DNA of 64,000 nucleotides. Source: the human T2T-CHM13v2.0 reference genome, Homo sapiens. How positions within the stretch are numbered: position 1 is the stretch's first letter; each line of letters begins with the position of its first letter. Both the position numbers and the translations under genes were made by a program. Below, piece after piece: positions 5,667 through 50,292 of this stretch. The notes beneath the pieces are model-generated. The model saw nothing but the letters and a program-made list of their open reading frames with translations, did not search any database and was not told the DNA's origin. Location of the stretch: assembly GCF_009914755.1 (NCBI RefSeq), contig NC_060938.1; one strand, given 5' to 3'.

Positions 5667-7800
<2,134 letters not shown>

Positions 7801-10590: not shown

Positions 10591-10738
10591 CTTTGTGCTG
10601 ACAAGACAGTATGTTGAAGTTTTGTTTTCCAACTTAGTTCTAAATCTGCAGTGTATCAAAATCTCCTCATTGTGCTTTGGATGTTATGGTACATAAATGG
10701 TATCTTCACAAAGATATATTCATTCTGGTACTGAAAGT
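10591..10738 (+). repeat. 148-bp direct repeat, copy 2 (unique flank)
   Basis: CTTTGTGCTGACAAGACAGT...CATTCTGGTACTGAAAGT, 745 bp downstream of copy 1. Confidence 0.93.
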
Positions 10739-12077: not shown

Positions 12078-12329
12078 AACAAAAAGTTAAATACACAGAG
12101 ATAGAGTATAAAACAGTGGTTACCAGGGGCTGGGGGTGAGAAGAGAAAATGGAGATAGAGAATTCGAAGGATGCAAAGTTGCAGATATGTAGAATTAACA
12201 AATTGAGGTATCCAATGTACAACATGAGGACTGTAGGTATTAATATTTTTTGTATATGGCATTTAACTAAAAGGGTAGTTTGTAGGTACTCTTTCCTCAC
12301 ACACATATCCAAAAGAAAGGTAACTGAGA
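12078..12329 (+). mobile_element. Old L1M (L1MA/MB-type) 3'UTR fragment
   Basis: AAAAAGTTAAATACACAGAGATAGAG...GTGGTTACCAGGGGCTGGGG...AATGTACAACATGAGGACT...AAAAGGGTAG...GGTAACT resembles L1M 3' ends. Confidence 0.75.
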
Positions 12330-12673
12330 TTTTCAAAGGGAATGCTTCCAGGTTTTGCCCATTCAGTATGATATAGGCTGTGGGTTTGTCATAAATAGCT
12401 CTTAATATTTCGAGATACGTCCCATCAATATCTAATTAATTGAGAGTTTTTAGCATGAAGATTGTTGAATTTTGTCAAAGGGCATTGCTGCATCTATTGA
12501 GATAATCGTGGTTTTTGATGTTGGTTCTGTTTATATGATGGATTACGTTTATTGATTTGCATATGTTGTACCAGCCTTGCATCCCAGGGATGCAGCCCAT
12601 TTGATCATGGTGGATAAGCTTTTTTATTTGCTGCTGGATTCGGTTTGCTAGTATTTTATTGAGGATTTTTGCA
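12330..12673 (-). mobile_element. L1PA ORF2 reverse-transcriptase fragment, truncated at both ends
   Basis: Minus-strand translation [50 protein letters not shown] is the N-terminal part of the L1 RT domain; no poly(A); directly fused to the satellite. Confidence 0.95.
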
Positions 12674-15600
12674 CTCCACTCCACTCCACTCCATTCCATT
12701 CCATTCCATTCCATCTCATTTCATTCCACTCCCTTCCCTTCTACTCCACTCCATTCCACTTTACTCCAGTCCACTACACTCCATTCCATTCCATTCCATT
12801 CCATTCCATTCCAATCCATTCTATTCCATTCTTTTATTTCGTCAGGAACTCACTCTGTCACCCAGGCTGTAGTGAAGTGGCAGAAGCTCAGCCCACATTT
12901 CATTTCACTTTGCCATTCCATTCCATTCCATTCCATTCCATTCCATTCCACTCCACACCACTCCACTCCACTCTACTCCACTCCACTGCATTCCTTTCCA
13001 TTACATCCGATTCCAATCCTCTTTATTCCACTCTACTCCACTACACTCATCTCCACTCCACCCCACTCAAATCCATTCCACTCTAACCCATTCCATTCCT
13101 TTCTTTTGATAGAATCTCACCTATCACCCAGGATGGAGTGCAGTGGCACAATCTCAGCTCACATTTCATTTCACCATTCTATTCCTTTCTATTCCATTCC
13201 ACTCCATTCCATTCTATTCTACTCCACTCCTCTCCACTCCACTCCACTCCATTCCATTCGATTCCAATCCACTCAACTCCACTCCACTACATTCCATCCC
13301 ATCCCATTCCATTCCACTCCATTCCACTCCACTCCACTCCATTCCATTCCACTCCATCCCATCCCATTCCACTACATTACATTCCACTACACTCCACTCC
13401 ACACCACTGAATTCTACTCCATTCCATTCCATATCATTCCATTCTATTCCTTTCTGTCGACAGGATCTCACTCTGTCACCCAGGATGGAGTGCAGTGTCA
13501 TAATCTCAGCTATCATTTCATTTCACGATTCCATTCCATTCCATGGCATTCCATTCCATTCCATCCTTTCCGATTACACTACATTCCACTCCATTCCTCT
13601 CCTCTCCGTTCCATTCCATTTCATTCCATTCCATTCCACTCCATTCCACTCCACTCCATTCCACTCCACTCCATACCATTCCATCGAATTGAATTCCACT
13701 CCACTCCACTCCACACCACTCCTCTCCACTCCATTCCGTTCCACTCCACCCCATTCCATTCCACTCCGTTCCACTAGACTCCACTCAAATCCAGCCCCTT
13801 CCACTCCACTCCACTCCACCCCACTCCATCCCATTCCTTTCCCCTCCATTCAATTCCATTCCTTTCTTTTGACAGGATCTCAATCTGTCACCCAGGCTGG
13901 AGTGGAGTGGCACTATCTCAGCTCACATTCAATTTCACCATTCCATTCCATTGCATTCCATTGCATTCCATTCCATTCCATTCCATACCATTCCATTCCA
14001 TTATAATCCACTCCAATCCACTCCACTCCACTCCTTGCCATTCCCTTCCATCCCATTCCATTCCACTCTACTCCACTGAAATTCACACCATCCCACTCCA
14101 CTACATGCCATTCGATTCCATCCTATTCCATTCCACTCCGTTCCACTTGACTCCACTCCACTCCACTCCAATCCACTCCACTCCATTCAATTCCACCACA
14201 TTCCATTCCATGTCTTTCCTTTGACGGGATCTCTCAGTGTCAAAAAGGCTGGAACACAGTGGCACAATCTCAGCTCACATTTTATTTCACCATTCCATTC
14301 CATTCCACTCCATTCCACTCCACTCCATTTCCCTCAACTCCACTCCACTCCCCTCCATTCCATTCCATTCCATTCCACTCCACTCCACTTCATTCCACTG
14401 CAATCCAGTCAAATCCACTCCATTACAATTCACTCCACTCCACTCCACTCCATTCCATTCCACTCCTTCCCATTCCATTCCACTCCATTATGCTCCATTC
14501 CTCTCCACTCCACTCCAATCCATTCCATACCATTATAATTCACTCTCTTACATTCCATTAATTTCTTTCGACAAGATCTCACTCTGTCACACAGGCTGGA
14601 GTGCAGTGGCACTATCTCAGCTCACATTTAATTTCACAATTCCATTCGATTGCATTCCATTGCATTCCACTCCATTGCATTCCATTCCAATCCATTCAAT
14701 TCCATTCCATCCCATTCCATTGCACTCCTGTGAACTCCCCTCCACTCCACTGCATTCCATTCCATTCCATTCGACTCCACTCCACTCTACTCCAATCCAT
14801 TCCATTCCATCCCATTCCATTGCAATACTGTGAACTCCACTCACCTCCACTCAACTGCATTTCAATCAATCCATTCGATTCGATTCGATTCCATTCCATT
14901 CCATTCCACTCCTTTCCATTCCATTCCTTTCATTCGACAGGATCTCACTCTGTCACCCAGGCTGGAGTGCAGTGGCACAATCTCAGCTCATATTTCATTT
15001 CATCATTCCATTCTATACCATTCCATTCCTATCCATTCCATTCTATTCCATTACACTCCAATCCACTCTACTCCACTCCACTTCATTCCATTGCATTCCA
15101 TTCCATTCCACTTTACTCCACTCCTCTCCACCCCACTCCACTCCACTCCATCCCATTCCATCCAATTCCATTCCATTCCTCTCCTCGTCCCTCCACTCAA
15201 CTCCACTCCCCTCCACTTCATACCATTCGATTCCATCCCATTCCATTCCATTCCACTCCACTCCACTCCACTCCACTCTGCTCCACTCCACTGCACTCCA
15301 TTCCATTCCACTCTACTCCATTCCATTCGACAGGATCTCATTCTGTCACACAGTCTGGAGTGCAGTGGGAGAATCTCAGCTCACATTTCATTTCACTATT
15401 CCATTCCATTCCATTCCCCTACACCCTTCTCCAATGCACTCCACTCCACTCCATTCCACTACATTACATTACACTCCATTTCACTCCATTCCACTCCATT
15501 CCAATACAATCCACAACATTCCATTCCATTCCATTCCATTCCATTCCATTCCATTCCATTCCATTCCATTCCAATCCATTCCATTCCACTCCATTCCATT

Positions 15601-18600
15601 CCATTCCACTCCACTCCATTGCACTCCACTACACTCCTTCCATTCAACTCCATCCCATTCCATTCCACTCCATTACACTCCACATCACCCCACACCCCTC
15701 CATTCCACTCCATTCCACTCCACATTACTCCACACCTCTCCACTCCACTCCATTCCATTCCATTCCTTTCTTTCGACAGGATCTCATTCTGTCACCCAGG
15801 CTGGCGTGCAGTGGAACAAACTGAGCTCACATTTCATTTCACCATTCCATTCCATTCCATTCCATTCCATTCCATTCCATTCCATTCCATTGCTTTCCAT
15901 TCCATTCCATACCATTCCATTCCATTCCATTTCATTCCATTCCTTTCCATTCCACTCTATTCCACTCCGATCCACTCCATTCCACTCCACTCCATGCCAT
16001 TCCCTTCCATCCCATTCCAATCCACACCATTCCACTCCATTCCACCCTACTGTACTCAAATTCACTCCACCCCACTCCACTACATGCCATTCCATTCCCT
16101 CCCATTCCATTTCACTCCGTTTCACTCAATTCCACTCCACTCCACTCCAATGCACTACACTCCAATCCACTCCACTCCATTCCATTCCACTCCATTCCAT
16201 TCCACCCCATTCCATTCCAGTCCTTTCTTTCGATGGGATCTCACTGTGTCAAAAAAGGCTGGAACACAGTGGCACAATCTCAGCTCACATTTTATTTCAC
16301 CATTCCATTCCACTCCACTCCATTCCCCTCCACTCCCCTCAACTCCCCTCCATTCCATTCCATTCCATTCCATTCCATTCCATTCCATTCCATTCCATTC
16401 CACTCCACTCCATTCCCCTCCACTCCCCTCCACTCCCCTCCATTCCATTCCATTCCATTCCATTCCATTCCATTCCACTCCACTCCATTCCACTTCAATC
16501 CAGTCAACTCCACTCTACTCCAATTCAATCCACTCCACTCCACTCTATTCCACTCCACTCCATCCCATTCCATTCCACTCCATCCCATTCCTTTCCACTC
16601 CATTACGCTCTATTCCACTCCACTTCACTCCACTCCATTCCATTCCATTCCATTCCATCATACTTCACACACTTACATTCCATTAATTTCTTTCGACAGG
16701 ATCTCACTCTCACACAGGCTGGAGTGCAGTGGCACTATCTCAGCTAACATTTAATTTCACAATTCCATTACATTGCATTCCATTTTATTCCATTCCATTG
16801 CATTCCATTTCATTGCATTCCATTCACTTCCATTCCATCCCATTCCATTCCACTCCTGTGAACTAAACTCCACTGCATTCAATTCCATTACATTCCATTC
16901 CACTCCACTACACTCCTCTGTACTCCTCTCCATTCCATTCCGTCCCATTCCATTCCAGTCCCTTCCACTATACTCCACTCCACCCCACTCCACTCTATTC
17001 CATTCCATTGCATTCCAGTCCTTTCCATTCCATTCCTTTCTTTCAACAGGATTTCACTCTGTCACCCTGCTGGAGTGCAGTGGCACAATCTCAGCTCATA
17101 TTTCATTTCATCATTCCATTCTATTCCATTCCATTCCTTTCCATTCCATTCAATTCCATTCCACTACATTGCATTCCAGTCCACTCCACTCCACTCCACT
17201 TCACTCCACTCCACTCCATTCCATTCCATTCAATTCCACTCCACTGTAGTCCATTCCTCTCCACCCAACTCCACTGAACTCCATTCAATTCCATCCAATT
17301 CCATACCACTCCACTCCTCTCCACAACACTCCACTCCACTACCCTCCACTTCATTCCATTCAATTCCATCCCATTCCATTCCATTTGACTCCACTCCTTT
17401 CCACTCCACTCCACTCCATTCCGTTCCATTCCTTTCCACTCCGTTCCATTCCACTCCACTCCACTCCATTCCATTCCATCCCATTCCACGCCATTCCGTT
17501 CTATTCCTCACATTCGACAGGATGTCACTCTGTCACCCAGTCTGGAGTGCAGTGGCAGAATCTCAGCTTACATTACATTTCACTATTCTATTCCATTCCA
17601 TTACATTCCATTCCACTCCACTTCACTGCACTCCAATCCACTCCATTCCATTCCATTACATTCCACTCCATTCCACACCAGTCCACTCTATTCCACTGCA
17701 CTCCACTCCATTCCATTCCATCCCATTCCATGGCATTCCATTCCACTGCATTTCAATCCACGCCACTCCACTTAATGCAATCCATTCCATTCCACTCCAT
17801 CCCATTCGATTCCACTCCATTCCACTCCACACCACTCCACTCCACTCAGCTCCACTCCAATTCATTTCATTCCATTCCTTTCTTTTGACAGCATGTCACC
17901 CTATCAACCAGACTGGCGGGCATTGGCACAAACTCAGCTCACATCTCATTTCACCACTCCATTCCAATCTATTCCATTGCATTCCATTCCATTGCTTTCC
18001 ACTGCATTCCATTCCATTCCATTCCATTCCACTCCACTCCATTCCACTCTACTCCACTCCAATCCACTCCACTCCACTCCAATCCACTCCCCTCCACCTC
18101 ATTCCATGGTATTCAATTCCATCCCATTCCATTCTACTCCATTCTGCTCTACTCCACTCCAATCCACTCCTCTCTACTCCACTCCATGCCATTCCTTTCC
18201 ATCCCATTCCATTCCACTCCATTCAACTCGACTCCACTCCACTCCACTTCACTCCATTCCATTCCATAAAATTCCACTCCATTCCATAACATTCCTTTCT
18301 TTCCACAGGATCTCACTCTTTCACAAAGGCTGGAGTGCAGTGGCACAATCTCAGCTCAAATTTCTTTTCGCTATTCCATTGCATTCCATTCCATCCAATT
18401 CCATTCCACTCTAGTTCACTCTAGTCAACTCCACTCCATTCCATTTCACTCCATTTCATTCCATTCGACTCCATTTCACTCCAGTCCACTCCACTCCACT
18501 ACCCTCCACTCCACTCCATTCCATTCCATTCAATTTCACTACATTGCATTCTATTCCTTTCTTTCGAAAGGATATCAGTGTGTCACCCAGGCTGGAGTGC

Positions 18601-21600
18601 AGTGGCACAATCTCAATTCACATTACATGTCAACTTTCCATTGCATTGCATTCAATTCCATTCCATTCAATTCAATTCCATTTCATTCCACTTCTTTACA
18701 CACCATTCCACTCCAATCTACGCCACTACATTCCATTATATCCGATTCCATTCCACTCAATTCCACTCCTCTACACTCCACTGCACCCCACTCCACTCCA
18801 CTGCACTCCACTCCATTCCACTCCATCCCATTCCATTCTGCTCCATTCCACTCCATTCCACTCCATTCCACTGAACTCCACTCCACCCGACTCCACTCCA
18901 CACCATTCCATTCCATTCTATCCCTTTCTATTCCTTGCCATTGCACTCCACTCCACTCCACTTCACTCCACTCCACTCCAGTCCATTTCATTCCATTCCA
19001 TTCCATTCCACTGCATTCCATTCCTTTCTTTCGAGACTATCTCTCTCTGTGACACAGCCTGGAGCACAGTGGCACAATCTCAGCTCCCATTTCATTTCTG
19101 CATTCTATTCCATTCCGTTCCATTCTACTCCACTCCACTCCACTCCACTCCAATCCATGCCACTCCACTCCACTCATCTCCATTCCAGTGCACTCCACTC
19201 CTTTCCATTCCATCCCATTCCATTCCACTCTTTCCACTCCAATTCACTCCAATCCATTCCATTAAATTCCACTCCATTCCATTCCATTCCACTCCATTCC
19301 ACTCCATTCCATTCCATTCTTTTCTTTTGACAGGATCTCACTCTGTCACCTAGGCTGGTGTGCAGTGGCACAATAACAGCTCACATTTTATTTCACAATT
19401 CCAATCCATTTCTTTCCATTCCACTGCACTCCACTCCACTCCACTCAATTCCACTCCACTCAACTTCAATCCATTCCATTCCATTCCATTCCATTCGAAT
19501 CCCTTCCATTCCACTTCTTATCTTCGACAGGATCTCCCTCTGTCACATGCTGTAGCTCAGTGGCACAATTTCAGCACGCATTTCTTTTCACCATTCCATT
19601 GCATTCCATTCCATTCCACTCCACTCCCCTCCACTCCTTTCCACTCAACTCCCCTCCATTCCATTCCACACTACTCGACTCCACTCCATTTCATTCCATC
19701 CCATTCCATTCCACTCCTTTCCACTCCACTCCAGTACATGTCTTTCCATTCCCCACCATTCCATTCCGATATTTTCTTTCGACAGTATCTCACCCTGTCA
19801 CCGAGACTGGAGTGCACTGGCACAATCTTAGCTCACATTTCATTTCACCATTCCATTTCATTCCATTCCATTCCATTCCATTCCATTCCATTCCATTCCA
19901 TTCCATTCCATTCCAATCCATTCCATTCCAACCCATTCCATTCCATTTCTTTCCTTTGACAGGATCTCACTGTGTCAAAAAAGGCTGGAATACAGTGGCA
20001 CAATCTCAGCTCACATTTCATTTCACCATTCCGTTCCATTCCATTCCATTCCATTCCACTCCACTCCATTCTCCTCCACTCCACTCCACTCCCCTCCATT
20101 CCATTCCATTCCATTCCATTCCATTCCGTTCCACTCCATTACACTCCACTCCAATCAAATCCACTCCTCTCCACTTCACTCCACTCCACTCCACTCCATT
20201 ATATTCCATCCCATTCCATTTCAATCCATTCCTCTCCACTCCTCTCCAGTCAACTCCATTCCATTCCATTCCATCCCATTCCATTCAACTCCGTTACAAT
20301 CCATTCCACTCCACTCCACTGCAGTCCATTAGATTCCATTCCATTCCATTTCACTCCATTCCATTCCATTCCTAACTTTCTACAAGATCTCACTGTGTCA
20401 TCCAGGCTGGAATGCAGTGGCACTATCTCAGCTCACATTTAATTTCACTATCCATTCCTTTGCATTCCATTGCATTGCATTGCATTGCATTCCATTCCAT
20501 TGTATTTCATTGCATTCCATTGAATTCCATTCCCCTGAATTCCATTGCATTCCATTCCATTGTATTCCTTTCAATTCCATTCCATCCCATTGCATTCCAC
20601 TTCTGTGAACGGCGTTCCACTCCACTCCACTGCATTCCATTCCATTCAATTTCATTCCACTCCACTCCACAGCATTCAATTCCATTCCATTTCATTCCAC
20701 TCCAATCACTCCACTCCACGTCACTCCATTCCATTCCATCCCATTCCTTCCAATTGCATTCCACTATACACCATTCCACTCCATGCCACTCCACTGCACT
20801 CCATTCCATTCCATTCCTCCCCACTCCACTCCACTCAACTCCCCTCCACTCCGCTCCTCTCCATTCCATTCCATTCCATCTCTTTCCATTCCACTCCACT
20901 CTACTCCACTCCGCTCCACTCCATTCCATTCCACTCCATCATATTCCGTTCCGCTCTATTCCACTCCACTCCACTCCATTCCATTCAATTCCATTCCACT
21001 TCATTCCATTCCATTACGTTCTTTCGAGAGGTTCTCACTCTGTCACCCAGGGTGGAGTGTGGTGGTACAATAGCACCTCATATTTCATTTCATCATTGCA
21101 TTAAATTCCATTCCATTCCACTCCAGTCCATTCCACTCCCCTCGACTCCATTCCATTCTACTCCACTCCACTGCACTCCATCCCATTCCTTCCACCCCAC
21201 TCCGTTCCACTCCACTTCATTCCATTCCATTCCATCCCATTCCATTCCACTCCTGTGAACTCCACTCCAGTCCACTGCATTCCATTCCATTCCATTCCAT
21301 TCCATTCCATTCCATTGCGTTCCATTCCATACCATTCCATTCCATACCATTCCATTAAATTCCATTCCATTCCACTCCTGTGAACTCCACTCCACTCCAC
21401 TCCTCTGCATTCCATTCCATTCCATTCCAGTCCACTCCACTCCACTCCATTGCATTTCATCCCATTCCATTCCACTCATTCCACTATACTCCACTCCACT
21501 CAAATACACTCCACTCCTTTCCATTCCATTGCATTCCAGTCCTTTCCATTCCATTCTTTCTTTCAACAGGATTTCACTCTGTCACCCATGCTGGAGTGCA

Positions 21601-24600
21601 GTGGCACAATCTCAACTCATATTTCAATTCATCATTCCATTCTATTCCATTCCATTCCTTTCTATTCCATTCAATTCCATTCCACCACATTCCATTCCAC
21701 TCCACTCCACTCCAACTTCACTCGACTCCACTCCATTCCATTCCATTCAATTTCACTACTCTCTACTCCATTCCTCTCCATCCAATTCCACTCCACTCCA
21801 TTCAATTCCATCCAATTCCATACCACTCCACTCCTCTCCGCAACACTCCACTCCCCTCCACTTCATTCCATTCGATTCCATCCCATTCCATTCCATTCGA
21901 CTCCACTCCTCTCCTCTCTGCTCCACTCCATTCCATTCCGTTCCACTCCACTCCACTCCATTCCATACCATTCCATTCCAGTCCATTCCTTTCCATTCCT
22001 CACATACGACAGGATGTCACTCTGTCACCCAGTCTGGGGTGCAGTGGCAGAATCTCAGCTTACATTTCATTTCACTCTTCCATTCCATTCTATTCCATTC
22101 CATTCCATTCCATTCCATTCCACTCCATTCCTCTGCACTCCACTCCATTCCATTCCATTCCACTCCATTCCACTCCAGTCCACTCTATTAAACTCCCCTA
22201 CACTCCATTCCATTTCATTCCTCCCCACTCCACTACACTCAACTCCCCTCCACTCCACTCCTCCCCATTCCATTCTATTCCATCCCTTTCCATTACACTC
22301 CTCTCCACCCCACTCCGTTCCATTGTTTTAAATCACATTGCATTCCACTCTATTCCACTCCACTCCAGTCCACTCCACTCCACTCCCCTCCATTCCGTTC
22401 CATTGCACTCTATTCCATTCCATTCCATTCCCTTCTTTTGAGAGGATCTCACTCTGTCACCCAGGCTGGAATGTGGTGGCACAATACCACCTCACATTTC
22501 ATTTCACCATTGCGTTCAATTTCATTCCATTCCATTCCATTCCACTCCACTCCATTCCACTCCACTCCACTCCATTCCATTCTACTGCACTCCACTCTAT
22601 CCCATTCCTTTCCCACCCCACTCCGTTCCACTCCACTGCATTCCATTCAATTCCATTCCATCCTATTCCATTCCACTCCCTAACACTCTACTCCACTCCA
22701 TTCCACTCCACTCCAGTACACTAAACTCCATTCCATTCCATCCCATTCCATTACACTCCACCCCACTCCACTCCATGCCATTCCTTTCCCTTCCATTCCA
22801 TTCCATTCCACTCTAATCCATTCCATTCCTTTCATTCGTCAGGATCTCACTCTGTCACCCAGGATGGAGGGCAGTGGCTCAAACTCAGCTCAGATTTCGT
22901 TTCACAATTCTATTCCATTCTATTCCATTTCATTCATTTCCATTCCATTCCATTCCATTCCATTCCATTCCATTCCATTCCGTTCCGTTCCGTTCCATTC
23001 CATTCCATTCCATTCGGGTTGATTCCATTCCATTCCATTTGGGTTGATTCCATTCCATTCCATTCCATTCCAGTCCACTCCTGTGCACTCCACTCCATTC
23101 CACACCATTCCACTCCATTCTATTCCATTCCAATCCATCCCATTCCATTCCACTCCTGTGAACTCCACTCAATTCCATTCCACTGCTTTGCATTCCATTC
23201 TATTCCATTCTATTTCATTCCATTCCATTCCATTCCATTCCACTCCACTCCATTGCATTCTTTCCCATTCCATTCTACTACCTTCCATTCCACTGCACTC
23301 CTCTCCACTCCACTGCATTCCATTCCACTCCTTCCCATCCCTTTCCATTCCACTCCATTCCACTACAAAGCACTCCACTGCATTCTACTCCATGCCATTC
23401 CACTCCATTCCACTACACAGCACTCCACTGCATTCTACTCAATTCCATTCCACTCCATTCTTGTCCAATCCTTTCTGTCGACGGGATATCACTCTGTCAC
23501 CTAGGATGGAGTGTAGTCTCATAATCTCAGCTATAATTTCATTTCACGATTCCCCTCCATTCCATTCCATTCCATTCCATTCCACTCCACTCCACTCCAT
23601 TCCACTCCAATACATTCCATTCAATTAAATTCCATTCAATTCCACTCCACTACACTCCACACCACTCCTCTCAACCCCATTACATTCCACTCCAGCCCAT
23701 TCCATTCCACTCCATTCCACGCGACTCCACTCAAATCCCATCCACTCCACTCCACTCCATTCCTTTCCATTCCTTTCTTTTGACAGGATCTCATTCTGTC
23801 ACCCAGGCTGGCGTGCAGTGCCACAAACTCAGCTCACATTTCATTTCACCATTCCATTCCATTCCATTCCTTTCCATTCCTTTCCATTGTATTCCATTCC
23901 ACTCCATTGCATTCCATTCCATTCCATTCCATTGCAATCCATTCCATTCCATTCCATTCCATTCCATACCACTCCATTCCATTCCATTCCACTCTGCTCC
24001 ACTCCAATCCACTCCACTGAACTCCACTCCATGCCATTCCCTTCCATGCGTTTCCATTCCACTCCATTCCACTCTACTCCACTCAAATTCACTCCATCCC
24101 ACTCCACTACATGCCGCTCCTTTCCATCCCATTCCATTCCACTCCATTCCACTCGAATCCACTCCGCTCCACTCCACTCCAATCCACTTCACTACATTCC
24201 ATTCCACTCCATTCTATTCCATCCCAATCGATTCCATTCCTTTCTTTTGACAGGAACTCACTGTGTCAAAAAAGGCTGGAATACAGTGGCACAATCTCAG
24301 CTCACATTTCATTTCACCATTCCATTCCATTCCATTCCATTCCAATCCACTCCATTCCATTCCATTCCCCTCCACTCCATTCCCCTCCAATCCACTCCAC
24401 TCCCCTCCATTCCATCCCATTCCATTCCATTCCATTCCACTCCACTCTATTCCACTCCATTCCAATCAACTCCACTCAACTCCAATTCACTCCACTCCAC
24501 TGCATTCAATTCCATTCCATCCCTTTCCATTTCACTCCATTCCTCTCCACTCCACTCCACTACATTCCGTTCCACTCCATCCCATTCCATTTCACTCCAT

Positions 24601-39600: not shown

Positions 39601-42600
39601 CTCAACATCTATTGCATTCCTTTTCATTCCATTCCGTTCCATTCCAATGACTTCCACTGCACCTCACTCCACTGCACTCCACTCCATTCCACTCCACTCC
39701 ACTCCACTCCTTTCCATTCCGATCCACTCTAATCCACTCCACTCCAGTCCATTTCATTCCATCACATTCCATTCCACTCCTTTCCACTCCACTTTACTGT
39801 ATTCCATTACATTGCAGTCCATTCCATTCCAATATTTTCTTTCGACAGGATCTCACTGTGTCACCCAGGCTGGAGTGCAGTGCCACAATGTCAGCTCACA
39901 TTTCATTTCCTCATTCCCTTCCCTTCCATTCCATTCCTTTCCCTTCCCTTCCCTTCCCTTCCTTTCCCTTCCCTTCCCTTCCCTTCCATTCCATTCCATT
40001 CCATTCCCTTCCATTCCATTCCACTCCACTCCACTCCACTCCACTGCACTCCACTCCATTCTATTCCATTCCTTTTCACTCCATTCCATTTCAATATTTT
40101 CTTTTGACAGGATCTCACTCTGTCACCCAAAATGGAGTGCAATTACAAAATCCCAGCTCACATTTCATTTCACCATTCCGTTCCATTCCATTCCATTCCC
40201 CGAAATTCCATTCCACTCCACTCCACTCAACTCCACTGCACGCTACTCGACTCCACTCCACGCCACTCCAGTCATTCCATTCTACTCCATTCCATTCCAT
40301 TCCTTTATTTCGAAATGGACCTCAATCTGTAATCCTGACTGGAGGGCAGTGGCACAATCTTAGCTCACATTTAATTTCTCCATTCCATTCCATTCCATTC
40401 CATTCCATTCCATTCCATTCCATTCCACCCCATTCCATTCCACCCCATTCCATTCCATTCCTTTCTTTCGATGGGATATCTCTCTGTCAAAAAAGGCTGG
40501 AATACAGGGACACAATCTCAGCTCACATTTCATTTCACCATTCCATCGTATTCCTTTCCTTTCCATTCCATGCTGTGCCACTACACTCAATTCCACTCCA
40601 CTCCACTCCCCTCCCCTCCCCTCCCCCATTCCATTCCATACCATTCCATTCTATTGCATTCCACTCCATTCCACTCCACTCCAATCAACTCCACTCCACT
40701 CCACTCCACTCCATTCCATTCCATCCCATTCCATTTCACTCCATTTCTCTCCACTCCACTCCCCTCCACTCCATTCCTTCCACTCCATCCCATTCCATTC
40801 CACTCCATTCTATTCCATTCCACTCCACTCCACTCCACCCCATTCCATTCCATTCCAATCCATTCCATTCCATTCTTCTCTTTTGAGAGGATCTCACTCT
40901 GTCACCCAGGCTGGAGTGCAGTGGCAGTATTTCAGCTCAAATTTAATTTCACCATTCCATTCCATTCTATTCCGTTCCATTGCATGCCATTGCATTCCTT
41001 TCCATTGCATTCCATTCCACTGTAATGCATTCAATTCCATTCCATCCCATTCCATTCCAGTCCTGCGAGCTCCACTCCACTCCACTCCACTGCATTCCAT
41101 TCCATTCTATTCCATACCATACCATTCCATTCAACTCCACTCCACTCCACTCGCCTGCATTCCATTCCCTTCCATTCCATTCCATTTCACTCCATTGCAT
41201 TCCATTCCTTTCTTTTGACAGGATATCACTGTATCACTGAGGCTGGAGTACAGTGGCACAATCTCAGCTCACATTACATGTCAACTTTCCATTGCATTGC
41301 ATACTATTCCATTGCATTCCATTGCATTCCGTTCAATTCCATTCCATTCCATCCCACTCCGTTCCACTCCACTCCACTACATTCCACTACATTCGATTCC
41401 ATTCCACTCCATTCCACTCCTATTCACTCTACTGCGCTCCACTCCATTCCACTCCATCCACTCCATCCCATTCCATTCCGCTCAATTCCACTGCACTCCA
41501 CTCCACCCCACTCCACTCCCCTTCATTCCATTCCATTCCATCCCATTCCATTCCGCTCCTTTCTACTTCAATCCACTTCATTCCACTCCACACCAATCCA
41601 GTCGACTCCATTCCATTCCATTGCATTCCATTCTACTCCATTCCACTCCACCGAATTCCACTCCTCTCCACTCTACTCCATTCCACTCCACTCCATTCCA
41701 CTCCACTGCATTCCATTCCACTCCACTCCACTCCATTCCAGTCCATTCAACTCCACTCCATTCCACTCCACTAAACTCCACTTCCCCCATCCCATTCCAC
41801 TCCTTTCTTTCTACAGTATCTCTCTCTGTCATGCAGGATGTAGTGCAGTGGCACAATCTCAGCACCCATTCCGTTCCGTTCCGTTCCATTCCGTTCCATT
41901 CCAGTTCGTTCCACTTCACTCCACTCCAGTGTACTACATTCCATTACATCTGATTCCATTCCACTACATTGCACTTTTCTCCACTTCACTGCAATCCACT
42001 CCACTCTATTCCATTCCATTCCTTTCCACTCCTCTCCACTCTGTTCCACTCCACATAATTGCATTCCATCCATTCCATTCCATTCCATTCCATTCCATTC
42101 CATTCCATTCCTCTCCATTCCACTCCACTCCATTCCATTCCACTCCATTCGATTCCATTCCACTCCAGTCCATTCCACTCCACTCCATTCCATTCCACTC
42201 CACTCCATTCCATTCCACGCCACTCCATTCCACTCCACTCCACTGCATTGCATTGCATTCCATTCCATTCCACTCCACTCCACTCCACTCCACTCCTCTC
42301 CACCCCATTCCACTCTACTCCACTCCACTCCATTCCACTCCACTCCACTCCAGTCTGTTCCACTCCACTGCACTGCATTCCATTCCATTCCACTCCATTC
42401 CATTCCATTCCATTCCACTCCAGTCCATTCCACTCCACTTAATTCCATTCCACTCCACTCCAGTCCACTCCACTCCACTCCATTCCACTCCACTCCACTC
42501 TGCTCCAACCCATTGCACGCCTATCTTTCGACTGGATCTACCTCTGTCACACAGGCTGTAGTGCAGTAGCACAATCTCAGCACCTGTTAAATTGCGTTTC

Positions 42601-45600
42601 ATTCCATTCCACTGCATTCCATTCCAATGAATTCCACTGCATTCCACTCCACTGCACTCCACTCCCTTCCACTCCACTCCACTCCATTCCGTTCCACTCT
42701 ACTCCACTCCACTACGTTTCATTCCATCACATTCCATTCCACTCCACTTTACTCTATCCCGTTACATTGAACTCCATTCCATTCCAATATTTTCTTTCGA
42801 CAGGGTCTCACTCGGTCACCGAGGCTGGAGTGCAGTGCCACAATGTCAGCTCACATTTCATTTCCCCATTCCTTTCCCTTCCATTCCATTCCCTTCCTTT
42901 CCCTTCCATTCCAATCCATTCCATTCCCTTCTATTCCATTCCACTCCACTCCACTCCACTCCACTCCATTCTTTTCAATTCCACTACACTCCATTCCATT
43001 CCAATATTTTCTTGCGACAGGATCTCACTCTGTCATCCAAAATGGAGTGCAATTACAAAATCCCAGCTCACATTTCATTTCACCATTCCATTCCATTCCA
43101 TTCCCCTAAATTCCATTCCACTCCACTCCACTCAACTCCACTCCACGCCACTCCACTCCACTCCATGCCACTCCAGTCGTTCCATTCTACTACATTCCAT
43201 TCCATTCCTTTATTTTGAAATGGATCTCTCTCTGTCACCCAGACTGGAGTGCAGTGGCACAATCTTAGCTCACATTTAATTTCTCCATTCCATTCCATTC
43301 CATTCCATTCCATTCCATTCCATTCCATTCCATTCCATTAAGCCCCATTCCATTCCATTCCATTCCATTCCACCCCATTCCATTCCATTCCCTTCTTTCG
43401 AGGGGATATCACTGTGTCAAAAATGGCTGGAATACAGGGGCACAATCTCAGCTCACATTTCATTTCACCATTCCATTGTATTTCTTTCCTTTCTATTCCA
43501 TTCCATCCCACTACACTCAATTCCACTCCACTCCCCTCCCCTCCCTCATTCCATTCCATTCCATCCCATTCCATTTCACTCCATTTCTCTCCACTCCACT
43601 CCCGTCCACTCCACTCCCATCCACTCCATTCCTTCCACTCCATCACATTCCATTCCACTCCATTCTATTCCATTCCACTCCACTCCACTCAACTCCATTC
43701 CATTCCATTCCATTTCACTCCATTCCATTCCATTCCTCTCATTCGAGAGGATCTCACTCTGTCACCCAGGCTGGAGTGCAGAGGCAGTATCTCAGCTCAC
43801 ATTTCAATTCAACATTCCATTCCATTGCATTCCATTCCATTCCATTGCATTCCATTGCATTTCATTCCATTGCATTCCATTCCATTGCAACGTATTCAAT
43901 TCTATTCCATCCCATTTCATTCCACTCCTGCGAAGTCCACTCCACTCCACTGCATTCCATTCCGTTCCATTCCATTCCATTCCATTCCTTACCATACCAT
44001 ACCGTTCCATTACACTCCACTCCACTCCACTCCACTCCATCCCATTCCATCCCATTCCATTCCACTCCATTCCACTATAATCCACTCCACTCCACTCCAT
44101 TCCATTCCATTCCATTCCATTCCACACTTGTCCATTCCATTCCTTTCTTTCGACAGTATTTCACTCTGTGACAATGGCTGGAGTGCAGTGTTACAATCTC
44201 AACTCATATTTCATTTCATCATTCCATTCAATTGCATTACATTCCTTTCCATTCCATTCGTTTCCATTCCAGTATATTCCATTCCACTCCACTCCACTCC
44301 ACTTGGCTCCACTTCATTCAATTTCGTTCCATTCCACTCCACTCTACTCCACTCCTCTCCACTCCACTCCTCTACATTCAATTCCATCCAATTCCATACC
44401 ACTCCACTCCTCTCCCTAACACTCCACTCCACTCCCCTCCATTTCATTCCATTCGATTCCATCCCATTCCATTATATTCTACTCCACTCCCGTCCACTCC
44501 TATCCACTCCCTGCCATTCCATTCCTCTCCACTCTATTCCACTCCACTTCACTCCTATCCACTCCACTACATTCCAAACCATTCCACTCCAATGCATTCC
44601 ATTCCTTACATTCCACAGGATGTCACTCTGTTACCCATTCTGGAGTACAGTGGCATAATCTCGGCTTACATTTCATTTCGCTAATCCATTCCATTCCATT
44701 CCACTCCACTCCAATCCACTGCACTACACTCCACTCCACTGCACTCCACTCCACTCCTTTCCATTCCATTCCACTGCATTCCACTCCACTCCATTCCATT
44801 CCATTCCACTCGACTCCATTCCACTCTCCGCCACTCCAATCCACAGCACTCCATTCCATTATAGTCCATCCCATTCCATTCCACTCCACACCACTACACT
44901 CCACACTGCTCCACTCCACTCCATTCCATTCCATTTCTTTCTTTCGACAGCATCTCACGCTGTCACCCAGGCTGGCGTGCAGTGGCACAAATTCAGCTCA
45001 CATTTCATTTCACCATTCCATTCCATTCTATTTCATTGCATTCCATTCCTTTGCATTCCATTCCTTTGCATTCCATTCTATTCCACTCCATTCTATTCCA
45101 CTCGACTCCATTCCACTCTCCGCCACTGAAGTCCACTCCACTCCACTGCACTCGATGGCATTCCATTCCATCCCATTTCATTCCACTACAACCACTCTAC
45201 TCCACTTCAATCCACTCCACTCCACCATAATCCATTCCATTCCATTCCATCACATTCCATTCCACTCCATTCCACTCGACTTCATTCCACTCCACCACAT
45301 TCTATTCAACTCCACTCCACTCCATTCCACTCCACTCCACTGCAATCCATTCCATTCCGTTTCACTCAACTCCAATCCACTCCACTGCTTCCGATTACAA
45401 TTCTTTCTTTTGACAGGATCTCCCTCTGTCACACAGGTTTTGATGCAATGGCACAATCTCATCACCCATTCCATTCCATTCCATTTCATTCACCTCCTTT
45501 CCACTCCAGTCCACTCCACTCCCTTCCACTCCACTGCATGCCACTCCGTTCCATTCCATTCCACTCCACTCCACTCCACTCCAGTCCATTCCACTCCAGT

Positions 45601-48600
45601 CCATTCCAATCCATTCCACTCCACTCCATAACATTAAGCCCCACTCCACTCCACTCCAATCCATTCCATTCCACCACACTCCACCCCATTCCATTCCACT
45701 CGATTCCACTCCACTGCACTCCATTCCACCCCAATCCACTCCATTCCAGTCCACTCCACTCCCCTCCATTCCACTCCACACCAATCCATTCCACTCCATT
45801 TCACTCCACTCCACTGCAATCCACTCGAAACCATCCCATTCCACTCCTTTCTTTCCAGAGGATCTCCCTCTGTCACACAGTCTGTAGCACAGTGACACGA
45901 TCTCACCAGCGATTCCATTCCGTTCCATTCCATTCCATTCCATTCCATTCCAGTCAAATCCACTCCATGACACTACATTCCTTTGCATCCATTTCCATTC
46001 GACTCCATTCCACTCCACTCCACTCCATTCAATTCCACTCCACTCCACTCCATTTAATTCCACTTCACTTCACTACATCCACTCCTCTTCACTCTATTCC
46101 ACTCCACGCCACTGCATTCCACTCCACTCCACTCTATTCCTTTCCACTCCACTCCATTCCATTCCACTCCACTCCATTCCATTCCATTCCAGTCCAGTCC
46201 ATTCCACTCCATTCCACTAAATTTCACTCCACTTTATGCCATTCCATTCCACTGCAATCCATTGCACGCCTCTCCACTCCTCTGCACTCCATTCCACTCC
46301 ATTCCACTCCACTTCTTTCAACTCCACTCATCTCCATTCCAATACATTCCATTCCATTCCACTGCACTCCACTCCACTGAATTCCACTGCACTCCACTCC
46401 ACTGAATTCCACTCCACTGCACTCCTCCTTTCCACTCCATTCCATTCCATTCCACTCCACTACACTCAACACCACTGCATTCCATTCCACTGCAGGCCAT
46501 TGAATTCCATTCCATTCCACCCAACTCCAATGCACTCCAGTCCACTCCACTCAATTCCACTCCACTCCAATCCACTACACTCCATTCTACTCCATGCCTT
46601 TCCATTCCTCCCCATTCCATTCCATTGCTTTCTGGTAAATTGCACTCAACTCCTTTCCACTCCATTTCACTCCACTCCATTCCATTCCACTCAACTGCAC
46701 TTCAATACGCTCCACTCCATTCCATTCCACCACACTCCACTCCATTCCATTCCTTTACCATTCATTCCATTCCATTTCACTCCAATCAATTCCATTCCAT
46801 TCCACTCAACTCCAATCCACTCCACTTCTTCCCATTCGAATTCTTTCTTTCGACAGGATCTCCCTTTATCACACAGGTTGTAGCGCAGTGGCACAATCTC
46901 AGCACCAATTCGATTCCATTCCATTTCACTCAGTTCCATTCCATTCCATTCAAGTCCACTGAACTCCACTCCACGCAACTCCATTCCATGCCAGACCACT
47001 ACATTCCATTCCATTCCATTCCACTCCACTCCATTCCACTGCTCTCCACCCCACTCCACTCCAATCCATTCCACTCCACTCCATTCCATTCCACTCCACT
47101 CCATTATATTAATCTCCAATTCCACTCCACTCCACTCCACTACACTGCACTCCTTCCCATTCCACTCCTTTCTTTCGACAGGTTCCCCTACTGTCACACA
47201 GGCTTTAGTGCAGTGGCACAATCTAAGTATCCATTTCATTCCATTCCATTCCATTCAACACCAATTCACTCCACTCCACTCTACTGTATTCCATTGTACT
47301 CCACTCCACTCCATTCCATGCCACTCCAGTCAACTCCATTCCACTCCACTCAACTCCATTCCAGTCGACTCCAGTCCATTCCACTCCGTTCCAGTGAATT
47401 CTACCCTACTCCATTCTATTCCACTCCACTATATTGTATTCCACCACACTCCATTGCACTCCACTCCATTCCATTTCACTCCACTCCACTGCACTCCGTA
47501 ACATTCCACTCCACCCCACTCCACTCCATTCCATTCCACTACACTCCATTCCACTCCACTCAACTCCATTCCAGTCGACTCCAGTCCATTGCACTCCATT
47601 CCAGTAAATTCCACTACACTCACTTCTATTCCACTGCACTCCACTGCATTCCACCACACTCCATTACACTCCACTCCACTCCCCTCCACTCTATTCCAAT
47701 CTACTCCTCTCCGTTCGACTCCATTTCTTTCCATTCCATTCCACTCAATTCCGTTCAATTCCACTCCAGTCCATTTCACCCAACTCCAGTCCATTCCACT
47801 CCACTCCATCCCATTCCACTCCTCTCCATTCCATTCCATTCCACTCAACTCTAATCCATTAAAATCCACTCCACGCCATTCCACATCACTCCACTCCTCT
47901 CCACTCCATTCCACTCCATTCCACTCTACTCAATCCCATTATACTCCTTTCTCTCAACAGGATCTCTCTCTATCACACAGGCAGTAACTTAGTGGCGTGA
48001 TTACAGCAGACATTTCGTACCGTTTATTCCATTCCATTCCATTCCATTCCATTCCATTCCATTCCATTCCATTCCGTTCCATTCCGTTCCATTCCATTCC
48101 ATTCCATTCCATTCTGTTCCATTCCATTCCTTTCCACTCCACTCAACTCCCCTCCACTATATTCCATTACATCTGATTCCATTCCACTCAATTCGGCTCC
48201 ACTCAACTTCACTGCACTCCATTCCACTCCATTCCACTCCATTCCTTTCCACTCCACCCCACTCAACTCCACTCCATTCCATTCCATTGCATTCCATTTC
48301 ATGGCACTCCACTCCACTCCACTCAATTCTACTCCACATCAATCTACTTAATTAGATTCCATTTCATTCCACTCTAGTCCACATCACACATCTCCATTCC
48401 ATTCTACTCCACTCCATTCCATTCCAGTTCATTCCACTCCACTCCATTCCACTTCACTCCACTCCACTGCACTCCACTCCACTTCATTCCATTCCAATCC
48501 ATTCCATTCCACTCCACTCCACTCCTTTCCATTCCATTCCATTCCATTCCATTCCAATCCATTCCATTCCACTCCACTCCACTCCTTTCCATTCCATTCC

Positions 48601-49116
48601 ATTCCATTCCATTGCACTGCATTCCACTCCACCACTCTCCATTCAGTTCGATTCCATTCCATTACATTTCACTCCACTCTCCTCCACACCAATTCATTCA
48701 ATTCCACTCCACTTCATTCCATTCCATTCCATTCCATTCCATTCCATTCCATTCCATTTCATTCCATTCCTTTCCACTCTACTTCACTCCACTACAGTGC
48801 ACTCCAATCCACTCCATTCCACTCCACTCCACTCCATTCTACTCCAATCCACTCCAGTGCACTACAACGCATTCCACCCATTTCATTAGACAGGATCCCC
48901 CTCTGTCACACAGGCTGTAGTGCAGTGGCACAATCTCAGCACCCATTCCACTCCACACCTTTCCATTCCATTCCAGTGCATTCCATTCCATTCCACACCA
49001 TACCATTCCATTTCTTTTCAGTCCACTGCACTCCACTCGATTCCATCCCACTCAATTCCAGTCCTTTACACTACAATCCAATCCATTCCACTCAAATCCA
49101 TTCTACTCCACTGCAC
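12672..49116 (+). repeat. Composite Satellite III: (CATTC/CACTC)n with a periodic ~60-bp antisense Alu 3'-end fragment
   Basis: Diverged CATTC and CACTC pentamers. The motif TTTC(T/G)ACAGGATCTCACTCTGTCACCCAGGCTGGAGTGCAGTGGCACAATCTCAGCTCAC recurs about 89 times (first ~12841, last ~48889), always in the same orientation. Confidence 0.95.
33240..33815 (+). repeat. Three near-identical ~190-bp tandem copies within the satellite
   Basis: Marker CTTATGTGAA at 33372, 33567 and 33757, each followed by CATGCCTTTCCTTTCC. Confidence 0.85.
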
Positions 49117-49123
49117 TTGGCTA

Positions 49124-50292
49124 CACCCGGGTGGAATGGAATGGAATGGAATGGAATGGAATGGGATGGAATGGAATGGAAAAGTATGGAATTCAATCAA
49201 CCCAAGTGGAATGGAATGGAATGCAATGGAAATGAATTGAAGAGAATGGAATGGAATGGAACGGAATGGAATGGAATCAATGTGAGTGGAATGGAATGGA
49301 ATGGTTGGAATACAATAGATTGAAATCGAACCAACACGAGTGGAATGGAATGGAATTGAATGGAATGCAATAGAATGGAATGGATTCCACTAGAGTGGAA
49401 TGGAATGGAATGGAGTGAAAAACAACAGAACGGATTTGAATCAACCCACGAGGAGTGGACTGGAATAGAATGGAATGGAATGGAACAGAATGGAATTCAA
49501 TCAACCCGAGTGGAATGGAATGGAATGGAATGGAATGGAATGGAATGGAATGGAATCAATCCAAGTGGAATGGAATGGAATGGAATGGAATGGAATGGAA
49601 TGGAATAGACTGGAATTGAATCCACCCGAGTGGAATGGAATGGAATAGAATAGAATGGTATGGAATGGAATGGAATGCAATGGAATGGGATGGAATGGAA
49701 TGGAATAGAATGGAATGGAATGCAATGGAATGGAATCAACCCGAGTGGTATTCAATGGAATGCAATGGAACGAAAGGGAATGGAGTGGAATGGAATGGAA
49801 TGGAATGGAATGGAATAGAATGGAAAGGAATGGAATCATCCCGAGTGGAATGGAATGGAATGAAATGAAATGGAATGGAATGGAATAGAATGGAATGGGG
49901 ATGGAATGGAATGGAATGGAATGGAATGGAATGGGATGGAATAGAATGGAATTGAATCAAACCCGAATGGAATGGAATTGAATGCAATGGAATGGAAGGG
50001 AATAGAATGGAATTGAATCAACCCGAGTAGAATGGAATGGAATGGAATGCAATGGAATGGGATGGAATGGATTAAAATGGAAATGAATCAACCCAAGTGG
50101 AATGGAATGGACTGGCATGGAATGGAACAGAATGGAATGGAATGGAATAGAATGTAATTGATTAAAACCGAGTGGAATGGAATGGAATGGTATGGAATGG
50201 AATGGAATGGAATGGAATGGAATGGAATGGAATGGAATGCAATGGAATGGAATAGAATTGAATCAACCCGAGGGGAATGGAATGAAATGGAA
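49124..50292 (-). repeat. Inverted block of classical Satellite III, (GGAAT)n with CAACCCGAGT motifs
   Basis: Strand switches to GGAAT at CACCCGGGTG (49124-49133) and back at AATGGAATTCCATT (50286-50299); no Alu fragments and few GGAGT units. Confidence 0.96.

What the first reader, a model, noticed from the sequence alone, without database searches (positions are those of the whole stretch)
12672..49116. 36-kb composite satellite built from a captured 60-bp Alu fragment plus CATTC/CACTC spacers
Seen: about 89 same-orientation copies of a conserved ~60-nt non-pentamer module, spaced ~160-1000 bp apart (mean ~410) by variable pentamer tracts. Known: the module is the antisense 3' end of an Alu right arm (GAGACAGGGTCTCGCTCTGTCGCCCAGGCTGGAGTGCAGTGGCGCGATCTCGGCTCAC; the GACAGG looks J-like). 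Every copy breaks at the same point (GCTCAC|ATTT), and none has its own TSD or a normal poly(A). Inference: one truncated Alu entered a pentamer array and was amplified as part of a ~400-bp satellite unit, so this is not ~89 insertions. Mixed GGAAT/GGAGT Sat III subfamilies are known; I cannot tell from the sequence whether this Alu-bearing unit has been formally described.
Basis: partly seen in the sequence, partly recalled or inferred. Interest (0 to 1): 0.8.

Follow-up and report, generated by a model that had tools for sequence, protein, structure and literature searches.

The report
Alu-fragment-bearing satellite III array, chr14p
A 36-kb stretch of human chromosome 14's short arm is an old, decayed satellite whose roughly 410-bp units each carry the same 64-base piece of one Alu element; copies of the block sit on many other chromosomes, and this kind of array has already been noted in print.

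Summary
Window 12672-49116 holds 89 same-strand copies of a 64-nt module, with mean spacing 410 bp and range 156-1000 bp. The copies sit among mixed CATTC/CACTC pentamers.

The module is the antisense 3' end of an Alu right arm. It matches 55 of 63 bases of a full Alu in the same window.

A single capture followed by amplification is well supported:
- All 89 copies lie on one strand.
- None of the 89 continues as Alu past the break.
- Former CpG sites are fixed in the same decayed state in 72-89 of 89 copies.
- The pentamer flanks are conserved.

The array did not grow on chr14. The junction motif occurs 2607 times genome-wide, against 0 for the control. The array with its left flank recurs at 27 or more other places. 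For 83 of 88 units the nearest relative lies on chr4, 9, 22 or Y rather than in this array. The order is therefore old amplification, then decay, then dispersal by segmental duplication.

Novelty is low. T2T papers already report HSat3 arrays intermingled with non-homogenised Alu fragments on Y and the acrocentrics. The AluJ versus AluY origin, the absolute age and the catalogue name remain open.

The parts
12672..49116 (+). Composite satellite array. It has 89 units, each made of a 64-nt Alu-derived module plus a CATTC/CACTC pentamer spacer of variable length (spacer mean 345 bp, median 328 bp).
   Evidence: 27.3% of 5-mers are CATTC rotations and 19.7% are CACTC rotations. GC is 0.463.

Profile-hit starts: 12817, 13086, 13435, 13847, 14199, 14548, 14912, 15300, 15751, 16208, 16674, 17022, 17492, 17863, 18280, 18542, 19009, 19305, 19504, 19757, 19934, 20357, 21002, 21542, 21984, 22416, 22815, 23458, 23758, 24225, 24685, 25059, 25526, 25862, 26269, 26541, 26968, 27166, 27379, 27644, 27853, 28125, 28342, 28838, 29422, 29848, 30190, 30652, 31003, 31480, 31831, 32194, 32562, 33129, 34129, 34531, 34898, 35370, 35987, 36143, 36541, 37011, 37343, 37826, 38086, 38743, 39531, 39820, 40082, 40288, 40446, 40861, 41193, 41788, 42506, 42775, 42992, 43193, 43376, 43721, 44131, 44590, 44922, 45391, 45832, 46830, 47155, 47934, 48867. 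Each hit is about 105-115 bp and includes about 18 bp of pentamer flank upstream and about 28 bp downstream.
36143..36251 (+). Best-scoring single module copy, given as a representative. It reads pentamer flank, T-rich remnant, antisense Alu 3' end, break, then ATTTCATTTCACC and pentamers.
   Evidence: 114.9 bits, the highest of the 89.
12817..12925 (+). First module of the array.
   Evidence: 88.1 bits; sequence seen.
48867..48975 (+). Last module of the array. It is degenerate, and the break region reads CAGCACCCATTCC.
   Evidence: 68.3 bits; sequence seen.
15528..27184 (+). Old multi-unit duplication inside the array: 15528-19225 matches 23549-27184 (offset 8021, 82.6% identity).
   Evidence: Both copies have separate counterparts on chr4, so the duplication predates the dispersal.
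28516..36900 (+). Old multi-unit duplication inside the array: 28516-32183 matches 33228-36900 (offset 4712, 79.9% identity).
36062..47063 (+). Old multi-unit duplication inside the array: 36062-39522 matches 43643-47063 (offset 7581, 80.0% identity).
12330..12671 (+). Left flank, an L1-like fragment broken off at the array border. The flank-array junction is shared by the paralogous blocks.
   Evidence: Query bases 431-774 match many dispersed loci at 92-93%. The whole 1401-bp junction query matches 27 other places at 83-93%. The L1 identity itself is recalled from the translated motif. Pfam gave nothing for the four neighbouring open frames.
49117..50295 (-). Right neighbour: classic HSat3 in inverted orientation (GGAAT with the CAACCCGAGT-type interruption).
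   Evidence: GAATG rotations make up 50.9% of 5-mers and CGGGTTGA occurs 3.4 times per kb. The array-HSat3 border is not shared by the paralogues.
50296..64000 (+). Classic HSat3 in forward orientation, running to the window end. It is not part of the composite family.
   Evidence: CATTC is 48.7% and CACTC 3.1% of 5-mers. There are 46 CGGGTTGA motifs and no module copy. The closest published subfamily 24-mer is that of HSat3B2, with 57 matches at <=2 mismatches and 0 exact.
5673..5975 (+). Ordinary full-length Alu in the flank (sense on the + strand), used as the natural comparator for the module.
   Evidence: Rfam Metazoa_SRP hits at 5668-5782 and 5805-5951, + strand; module core 55/63 identical.

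Best explanation
This is one paralogous copy of an old satellite-III-related family that carries an Alu fragment.

Step 1 (inferred). In a single ancestral locus, the last ~56-58 nt of an Alu right arm, plus a short remnant of its A-tail, came to lie in a tract of mixed CATTC/CACTC pentamers. The Alu lay antisense to the C-rich strand. It was either 5'-truncated on insertion or cut down later.

Step 2 (shown in outline). By the time of amplification the fragment had lost all its CpGs. The fragment and about 40-60 bp of pentamers on each side were then amplified as one unit, by unequal exchange or tandem duplication. Pentamer slippage made the spacers vary from about 90 to 935 bp. Later growth was by duplications of about 9 units.

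Step 3 (shown). Homogenisation stopped and the units decayed to about 70-85% mutual identity.

Step 4 (shown). The decayed array, together with an L1-like left flank, was copied by segmental duplication to the short arms of all five acrocentrics. It was also copied to pericentromeric regions of chromosomes 1, 3, 4, 9 and Y, and members of the family also lie on 10, 16, 17 and 20. The chr14 copy at 4.66-4.70 Mb was later truncated on its right by a rearrangement with inverted classic HSat3.

I see no evidence of a sequence-specific function. It most likely behaves as heterochromatic satellite DNA.
For: The module is Alu-derived.
- Its 64-nt consensus core aligns end to end with the full Alu at 5673-5975: 55/63 identical, score 41, against a maximum of 15 in 200 shuffles.
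- It also aligns with six dispersed Alus fetched from the genome (53-56 identical of 56-64 aligned).
- All seven natural Alus continue TGCAA after the point where the module breaks.
- 689 dispersed Alus carry the same two 11-mers at the right distance.

Single origin.
- 89 of 89 copies lie on one strand.
- 0 of 89 continue as Alu after GCTCAC.
- At four former CpG sites the same decayed base (A after C on the + strand) is held by 72, 89, 87 and 86 of 89 copies. Independent insertions would show a mix of TG and CA.
- The flanks are conserved. The first ~40 bp after the module are nearly CACTC-free (0.01-0.07), and a CACTC peak (0.46) lies 40-60 bp upstream.

The host tract exists without modules. 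On chr4, chr9 and chr1 the CATTC/CACTC sequence runs on, free of modules, for the ~900 bp displayed after the last module.

Old array, later dispersal.
- Within the array, long self-matches are 70-83% identical and there is no higher-order repeat.
- The junction of flank and array recurs at 27 other places at 83-93%.
- Paralogous arrays hold 72 modules (chr22), 114 (chr4), 53 (chr9), 17 (chrY) and 2 (chr1) in the stretches fetched. They are co-linear with the window in blocks of 86-93% identity.
- 83 of 88 units have their best match in one of those four arrays. The median best identity is 91.3% there, against 84.9% within the own array.

Family size. There are 2607 genome-wide matches to the 22-nt junction at <=2 mismatches, against 0 for the reversed control. 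56 of the 89 window copies meet that criterion, which gives about 4100 copies by extrapolation.
Against: - No progenitor was found. No array end that I inspected (chr4, chr9, chr1, chrY) shows the missing part of the Alu, and the founder's TSD cannot be read in pentamer flanks. How the fragment arrived is therefore inferred.
- Absolute dates do not fit together. The module cores differ pairwise by about 22%, but by only 4.3% between best-matching paralogues. A review gives satellite III an age of about 16-23 My in Hominoidea (passage). Either these regions mutate faster than average or the family is older than that date.
- The Y-chromosome preprint calls HSat3-associated Alu fragments AluY-derived and seeded from PAR1 (passage). 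This conflicts with the J-like reading, if it concerns the same fragments.
- The spacing is very variable (156-1000 bp), so '410-bp unit' is an average, not a fixed monomer.
- No other primate genome could be searched.
Confidence: 0.85

Rival explanations
1. About 89 independent Alu retrotranspositions into a pentamer array.
For: Alus are abundant, and 689 dispersed Alus share the module's two 11-mers.
Against: All 89 copies have one orientation and one truncation point. None has a tail longer than the same 8-nt T-rich remnant. The same decayed CpG state is held by 72-89 of 89 copies, and the flanks are conserved.
Confidence: 0.01
2. The pentamers grew out of the Alu's own A-rich tail, as in known pentanucleotide expansions at Alu tails. 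A tandem duplication with one breakpoint inside the Alu then created the unit. On this view the Alu did not enter a pre-existing satellite.
For: A review listed (title and abstract only) says pentanucleotide expansions probably arise from Alu elements. The module's tail side abuts GGAAT-type repeats directly. A duplication breakpoint inside the Alu would explain the clean truncation.
Against: Module-free CATTC/CACTC tracts continue after the last module on chr4, chr9 and chr1. Mixed GGAAT/GGAGT satellite III is widespread on the acrocentrics without any mention of Alu (passages). The remaining 5' part of the Alu, expected at one array end, was not seen at the four ends inspected.
Confidence: 0.08
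3. The array is a recent, locally amplified chr14 satellite.
For: It is a continuous 36-kb same-strand array.
Against: There is no higher-order repeat, and internal matches are 70-83% identical. 83 of 88 units are closer to chr4, 9, 22 or Y than to any unit of the own array. The left junction is shared by 27 other places.
Confidence: 0.03
4. It is simply the catalogued satellite HSAT5 (Dfam DF000000207), which T2T reports on the proximal acrocentric short arms.
For: HSat5 arrays are reported on the proximal short arms and near the rDNA junctions (passages). Paralogues of this block lie near the rDNA arrays on all five acrocentrics (the rDNA positions themselves are recalled).
Against: A supplementary table gives HSAT5 an 86-bp monomer, and a preprint lists HSat5 among G4-enriched satellites (passage). 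This array has no 86-bp period and only 2 G4 motifs in 36.4 kb. I could not see the HSAT5 consensus.
Confidence: 0.12

Closest known systems
HSat3 arrays intermingled with Alu fragments on chrY and the acrocentric short arms (T2T-Y preprint 10.1101/2022.12.01.518724; passages read)
   Same: The chromosomes match: modules occur at chrY 11.2-11.5 Mb and on all acrocentrics. The behaviour matches too. The preprint reports no local homogenisation and no clustering by chromosome, which is what one search shows.
   Different: The preprint speaks of AluY fragments seeded from PAR1. Here the fragment's 3' end looks J-like against my recalled consensuses, and all of its CpGs were already lost before amplification. 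The passages I read do not describe a common breakpoint, a 64-nt module or a ~410-bp unit.
Classical satellite III of the acrocentric short arms, built of GGAAT and GGAGT motifs (clone subfamilies pTRS-47, pTRS-63, pR-1, pE-1 and others; passages)
   Same: The mix of the two pentamers is the same: 27% CATTC and 20% CACTC rotations. So is the location on acrocentric short arms.
   Different: The clone sequences and the original papers were not available. Whether any clone holds this module is untested. The Altemose preprint cites Bandyopadhyay 2001 for TE fragments inside satellite units.
HSat1B / DYZ2, the 2.5-kb Y satellite with one Alu subunit per unit (passages)
   Same: It is a satellite whose repeating unit carries one piece of a single captured Alu.
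   Different: HSat1B has an extremely AT-rich part and units more than 98% identical. Here GC is 0.46, the partner sequence is pentameric, only about 58 nt of Alu are kept, and the units are decayed.
WaluSat, the 64-nt 'with-Alu' satellite of chr14/22 distal short arms (passages)
   Same: It has a 64-nt element, lies on acrocentric short arms and is associated with Alu.
   Different: The WaluSat 64-mer is not Alu sequence. It lies beside an AluSx3 and forms head-to-tail arrays. Here the 64-nt core is itself Alu, and copies are never closer than 156 bp.
[quoted passage not shown]
   Same: It is a high-copy Alu-J fragment picked up by de novo repeat discovery in CHM13. That is what a module of about 4000 copies would produce.
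   Different: The preprint gives no sequence or location in the passages read, and its supplements are closed. Identity with this module is a guess.

Membership tests
HSat3 (human satellite 3) | Tandem array derived from the CATTC/GGAAT pentamer | tested here: met
   27.3% of 5-mers are CATTC rotations and 19.7% are the one-step variant CACTC. TRF reports period 5 across 13174-63996.
HSat3 (human satellite 3) | Regular interruption by the ~10-bp CGGGTTGA-type motif. That this is typical of classic HSat3 is recalled; the motif is seen in the neighbouring array. | tested here: not met
   1 occurrence in 36.4 kb (0.03 per kb), against 3.4 per kb in both neighbouring HSat3 stretches.
HSat3 (human satellite 3) | Assignment to one of the 14 HSat2,3 subfamilies by subfamily-specific 24-mers (Altemose 2014, table seen) | tested here: inconclusive
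   0 exact matches to any of the 14 published 24-mers. At <=2 mismatches only generic ones match (A2 31, A4 30, B5 29). Only one k-mer per subfamily was available. The same paper set aside CACTC-variant reads (passage).
HSat3 (human satellite 3) | Pericentromeric or acrocentric short-arm location | tested here: met
   chr14:4.66-4.70 Mb. The paralogues lie on acrocentric short arms and near centromeres of chr1, 3, 4, 9 and Y.
Alu (SINE) | Sequence homology to the Alu right arm | tested here: met
   55/63 identical to the window's full Alu, and 53-56 of 56-64 to six dispersed Alus. Shuffle control maximum score 15 against 41.
Alu (SINE) | Complete dimeric element with A-tail and target-site duplication (a retrotransposed copy) | tested here: not met
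   Only about 58 nt plus an 8-nt T-rich remnant are present, and 0 of 89 extend past the break. No Rfam SRP hit falls on any module in the scanned part of the array (12672-16000), while the full Alu scores 51 bits. These are fragments, not elements.
[quoted passage not shown] | Unit made of at least three repeat components, arrayed in tandem at one or more loci | tested here: met
   The unit is an Alu fragment plus a CATTC tract plus a CACTC-rich tract, with 89 units in tandem. Whether the T2T composite track lists it was not testable.
HSAT5 (Dfam DF000000207) | 86-bp monomer (supplementary table) | tested here: not met
   No 86-bp period. TRF reports periods 5, 157-158, 197, 212 and 262 only. 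Module spacing is 156-1000 bp.
HSAT5 (Dfam DF000000207) | Sequence match to the HSAT5 consensus | not testable with these tools
   The consensus is not held by any tool. G4 enrichment is reported for HSat5, but only 2 G4 motifs occur in 36.4 kb here.
WaluSat | Head-to-tail arrays of a 64-nt non-Alu monomer beside an AluSx3 | tested here: not met
   The 64-nt core is Alu sequence itself, and the minimum spacing is 156 bp (definition).

The most novel reading that the evidence does not exclude
The Alu-bearing CATTC/CACTC unit is a distinct, unnamed satellite family of about 4000 copies (roughly 1.7 Mb), lying outside the 14 defined HSat2,3 subfamilies. It was founded once from an old, J-type, fully CpG-decayed Alu fragment, not from AluY. 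It was amplified well before the hominoid date usually given to satellite III. Since the dispersal its Alu core has changed more slowly than the surrounding pentamers (4.3% against 5.9-6.2%), which could mean weak constraint on the core.
Probability: 0.15. Interest if true: 0.45.

Novelty: already known. Interest (0 to 1): 0.25.

Why it matters
For annotation, the roughly 89 'Alu' hits here, and a few thousand genome-wide, are one ancient capture multiplied by satellite growth and segmental duplication. They should not be counted as retrotransposition events or used to date Alu activity.

The decayed, non-homogenised units work as position-specific markers. Each unit can be matched to its counterpart on other chromosomes, which is rare for satellite DNA. 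That could help order the duplications that built the acrocentric short arms and several pericentromeres.

The disagreement between the J-like sequence and the printed AluY/PAR1 origin is a small point, but it can be checked.

Tried and rejected
- Rfam scan of 5000-16000 at E<=1. SRP hits fall only on the full Alu (5668-5782, 5805-5951). None falls on the modules in the scanned part of the array, so the 58-nt piece is too short for this test.
- Altemose 24-mers. There were no exact hits in the composite, so the test gives no subfamily.
- HSAT5 idea. I first favoured it, then weakened it on the 86-bp monomer and G4 enrichment in print. It is not excluded.
- WaluSat. Rejected after reading its description.
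- Search for a progenitor. The pattern with the module's 5' 11-mer plus the Alu continuation returned 689 ordinary dispersed Alus, so it is not specific. The array ends on chr4, 9, 1 and Y show no Alu remainder.
- Pfam scan of four open frames in the left flank: 0 families. The L1 assignment of 12330-12671 therefore rests on recall plus the many 92-93% dispersed matches.
- Papers not held: Choo 1990, Choo 1992, Jarmuz 2007, and PMC ids that I recalled for the Science versions of Altemose 2022 and Hoyt 2022. Bandyopadhyay 2001 was not looked up; it is a subscription journal.
- Search for HSat3 together with AluJ: 0 papers. Search for HSat3 together with 'Alu fragments': 2 papers, both read in passages.
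I repeated them with lighter settings.
Full report
OBSERVATION

The window is human T2T chr14:4650001-4714000. From about 12672 to about 49116 the + strand is C-rich pentamer DNA with GC 0.46 and GC skew about -0.75. An nhmmer profile made from 14 window copies finds 89 + strand copies of a non-pentamer module between 12817 and 48975. It also finds one minus-strand hit, which is a normal full Alu at 5673-5975. Successive copies are 156-1000 bp apart, with mean 410 and median 393. The 22-nt junction motif occurs 56 times at <=2 mismatches, all on the + strand, against 0 in 100 shuffles.

WHAT THE MODULE IS

The conserved core is 64 nt: an 8-nt T-rich remnant followed by about 56-58 nt. It aligns over its whole length to the antisense 3' end of the window's own full Alu (55/63 identical; score 41 against a maximum of 15 in 200 shuffles). 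It also aligns to six dispersed Alus from the same genome (53-56 of 56-64 identical). All seven natural Alus continue with TGCAA where the module stops. A pattern made of the module's first 11-mer and the Alu continuation finds 689 ordinary Alus genome-wide. Rfam's SRP model hits the full Alu but no module, because the piece is too short.

SINGLE ORIGIN

- All 89 copies have one orientation.
- After GCTCAC, 60 of 89 read ATTTC and the rest are one-step variants. None continues as Alu.
- At four positions where Alus carry CpG (recalled; visible in the natural copies printed), the module has CA in 72, 89, 87 and 86 of 89 copies. Independent insertions would have decayed to a mix of TG and CA. 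The founder had therefore lost its CpGs before it was multiplied.
- The pentamers next to the module are also conserved. The 40 bp downstream are almost free of CACTC (0.01-0.07 of 5-mers), and a CACTC peak (0.46) lies 40-60 bp upstream. The interior is an even mix and varies in length.

The amplified thing was therefore the module with its flanks, not an Alu.

NOT A CHR14 PRODUCT

Inside the array there is no higher-order repeat. Long self-matches are 70-83% identical, and the best are three duplications of about 3.5-3.8 kb at 80-83%.

The window's genome is held, and the family is spread widely:
- A 109-bp module query has 1684 first-look candidates, with 97-100% matches on chr3, 4, 9, 13, 14, 15, 21 and 22, and 91-94% matches on chr16, 17, 20, Y and elsewhere on the acrocentrics.
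- The junction motif has 2607 matches, against 0 for the reversed control. Since 56 of 89 window copies meet that criterion, the family has roughly 4100 copies, or about 1.7 Mb at 410 bp each. This is an extrapolation.
- A 1401-bp query across the left border (L1-like flank plus the first units) matches 27 other places over its whole length at 83-93% identity. They lie on chr1, 3, 4, 9, 13, 14, 15, 21, 22 and Y.
- The right border is not shared. Paralogues match up to about 49126 and then differ, and on chr22 modules continue past that point.

I fetched five paralogous blocks. They hold 72, 114, 53, 17 and 2 modules on chr22, chr4, chr9, chrY and chr1 respectively. They are co-linear with the window in blocks of 86-93% identity. 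For 83 of 88 window units the best match lies in one of these arrays and not in the own array, with median best identity 91.3% against 84.9%.

The order of events is therefore amplification, then decay with a few multi-unit duplications, then dispersal of the whole block by segmental duplication, then local truncation on chr14 by inverted HSat3. On chr4, chr9 and chr1 the mixed pentamers run on without modules after the last module. This fits a pre-existing host tract.

AGES

Only the relative order is safe. Module cores differ pairwise by 21.6%. Best-matching paralogous cores differ by 4.3% (62 of 88 units passed the filter). A review dates satellite III to about 16-23 My (passage). These figures cannot all be reconciled at the average genomic rate. 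Either the arrays mutate faster or the family is older.

ALU SUBFAMILY

Against my recalled consensuses, the module's 5' 11-mer is one step from the J-type 3' end. It is a CpG decay plus two steps from the S/Y type. It disagrees with the Y-chromosome preprint, which speaks of AluY fragments (passage). This rests on two or three diagnostic bases and on recall. It needs a proper classification.

COMPARISON WITH WHAT IS KNOWN

- Mixed GGAAT/GGAGT satellite III on the acrocentrics is classical (passages).
- The Y-chromosome preprint states that some HSat3 arrays are intermingled with Alu fragments. It adds that those on Y cluster with those on the acrocentrics, and that there is no local homogenisation or clustering by chromosome (passages). 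That is the behaviour found here.
- I read passages only. The supplements of these preprints are closed, so I cannot prove that the same fragments are meant.
- Altemose 2014 does not contain the word Alu, and it set aside CACTC-variant reads (passages).
- The array does not fit classic HSat3 in one respect: the CGGGTTGA-type interruption is nearly absent, at 0.03 per kb against 3.4 per kb next door.
- HSAT5 remains a possible catalogue name but looks unlikely.
- WaluSat and HSat1B are different things.

VERDICT

The array is an ordinary member of a dispersed, old, Alu-fragment-bearing satellite III family that the T2T papers have already noted. What may not be in print is the shared breakpoint, the conserved flanks, the pre-amplification CpG loss, the copy number and the unit-by-unit correspondence between chromosomes. 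Interest is low to moderate.

Noticed in passing
window 49117-50295 and 50296-64000: Classic HSat3 changes strand at about 50296, at a GGAATTCC palindrome. A 1.2-kb inverted piece therefore lies between the composite array and a long forward HSat3 array. This looks like one of the HSat3 inversion breakpoints that the centromere-maps preprint counts genome-wide.
   Followed up: partly
G000:C3:75918618-75919393 (not fetched): A chr3 site far from the centromere matches only the non-satellite left flank (query 1-774, 91%), and no array match was reported beside it. It could be the flank's ancestral locus before it was joined to the array.
   Followed up: no
window 12672-49116 against paralogues L009-L026: Between best-matching paralogous units the Alu core has fewer mismatches (4.29%) than the flanking pentamers (6.15%) or the interior pentamers (5.95%). 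Fisher p is about 5e-5, and 62 of 88 units were used. This may be misalignment or slippage in the pentamers rather than constraint.
   Followed up: partly
window, module columns: All former CpG sites of the fragment decayed in the same direction (CA on the + strand, TG on the Alu sense strand). With four or five sites this may be chance.
   Followed up: no
window 5803-5854: Rfam mir-1268 matches (47 bits, below its gathering score of 83) inside the full Alu of the flank. This is an Alu-derived miRNA family hitting Alu sequence, and it is not a gene call.
   Followed up: no
window 12605-13777: A 390-codon stop-free frame runs through the pentamer array. This is a by-product of CATTC/CACTC composition, not a gene.
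   Followed up: no
G000:C10:38975913-38987325 and C13:13117845-13183107 (not fetched): Further clusters of exact junction matches lie on chr10 and on chr13 near 13.1 Mb, on both strands. These arrays of the family were not examined.
   Followed up: no
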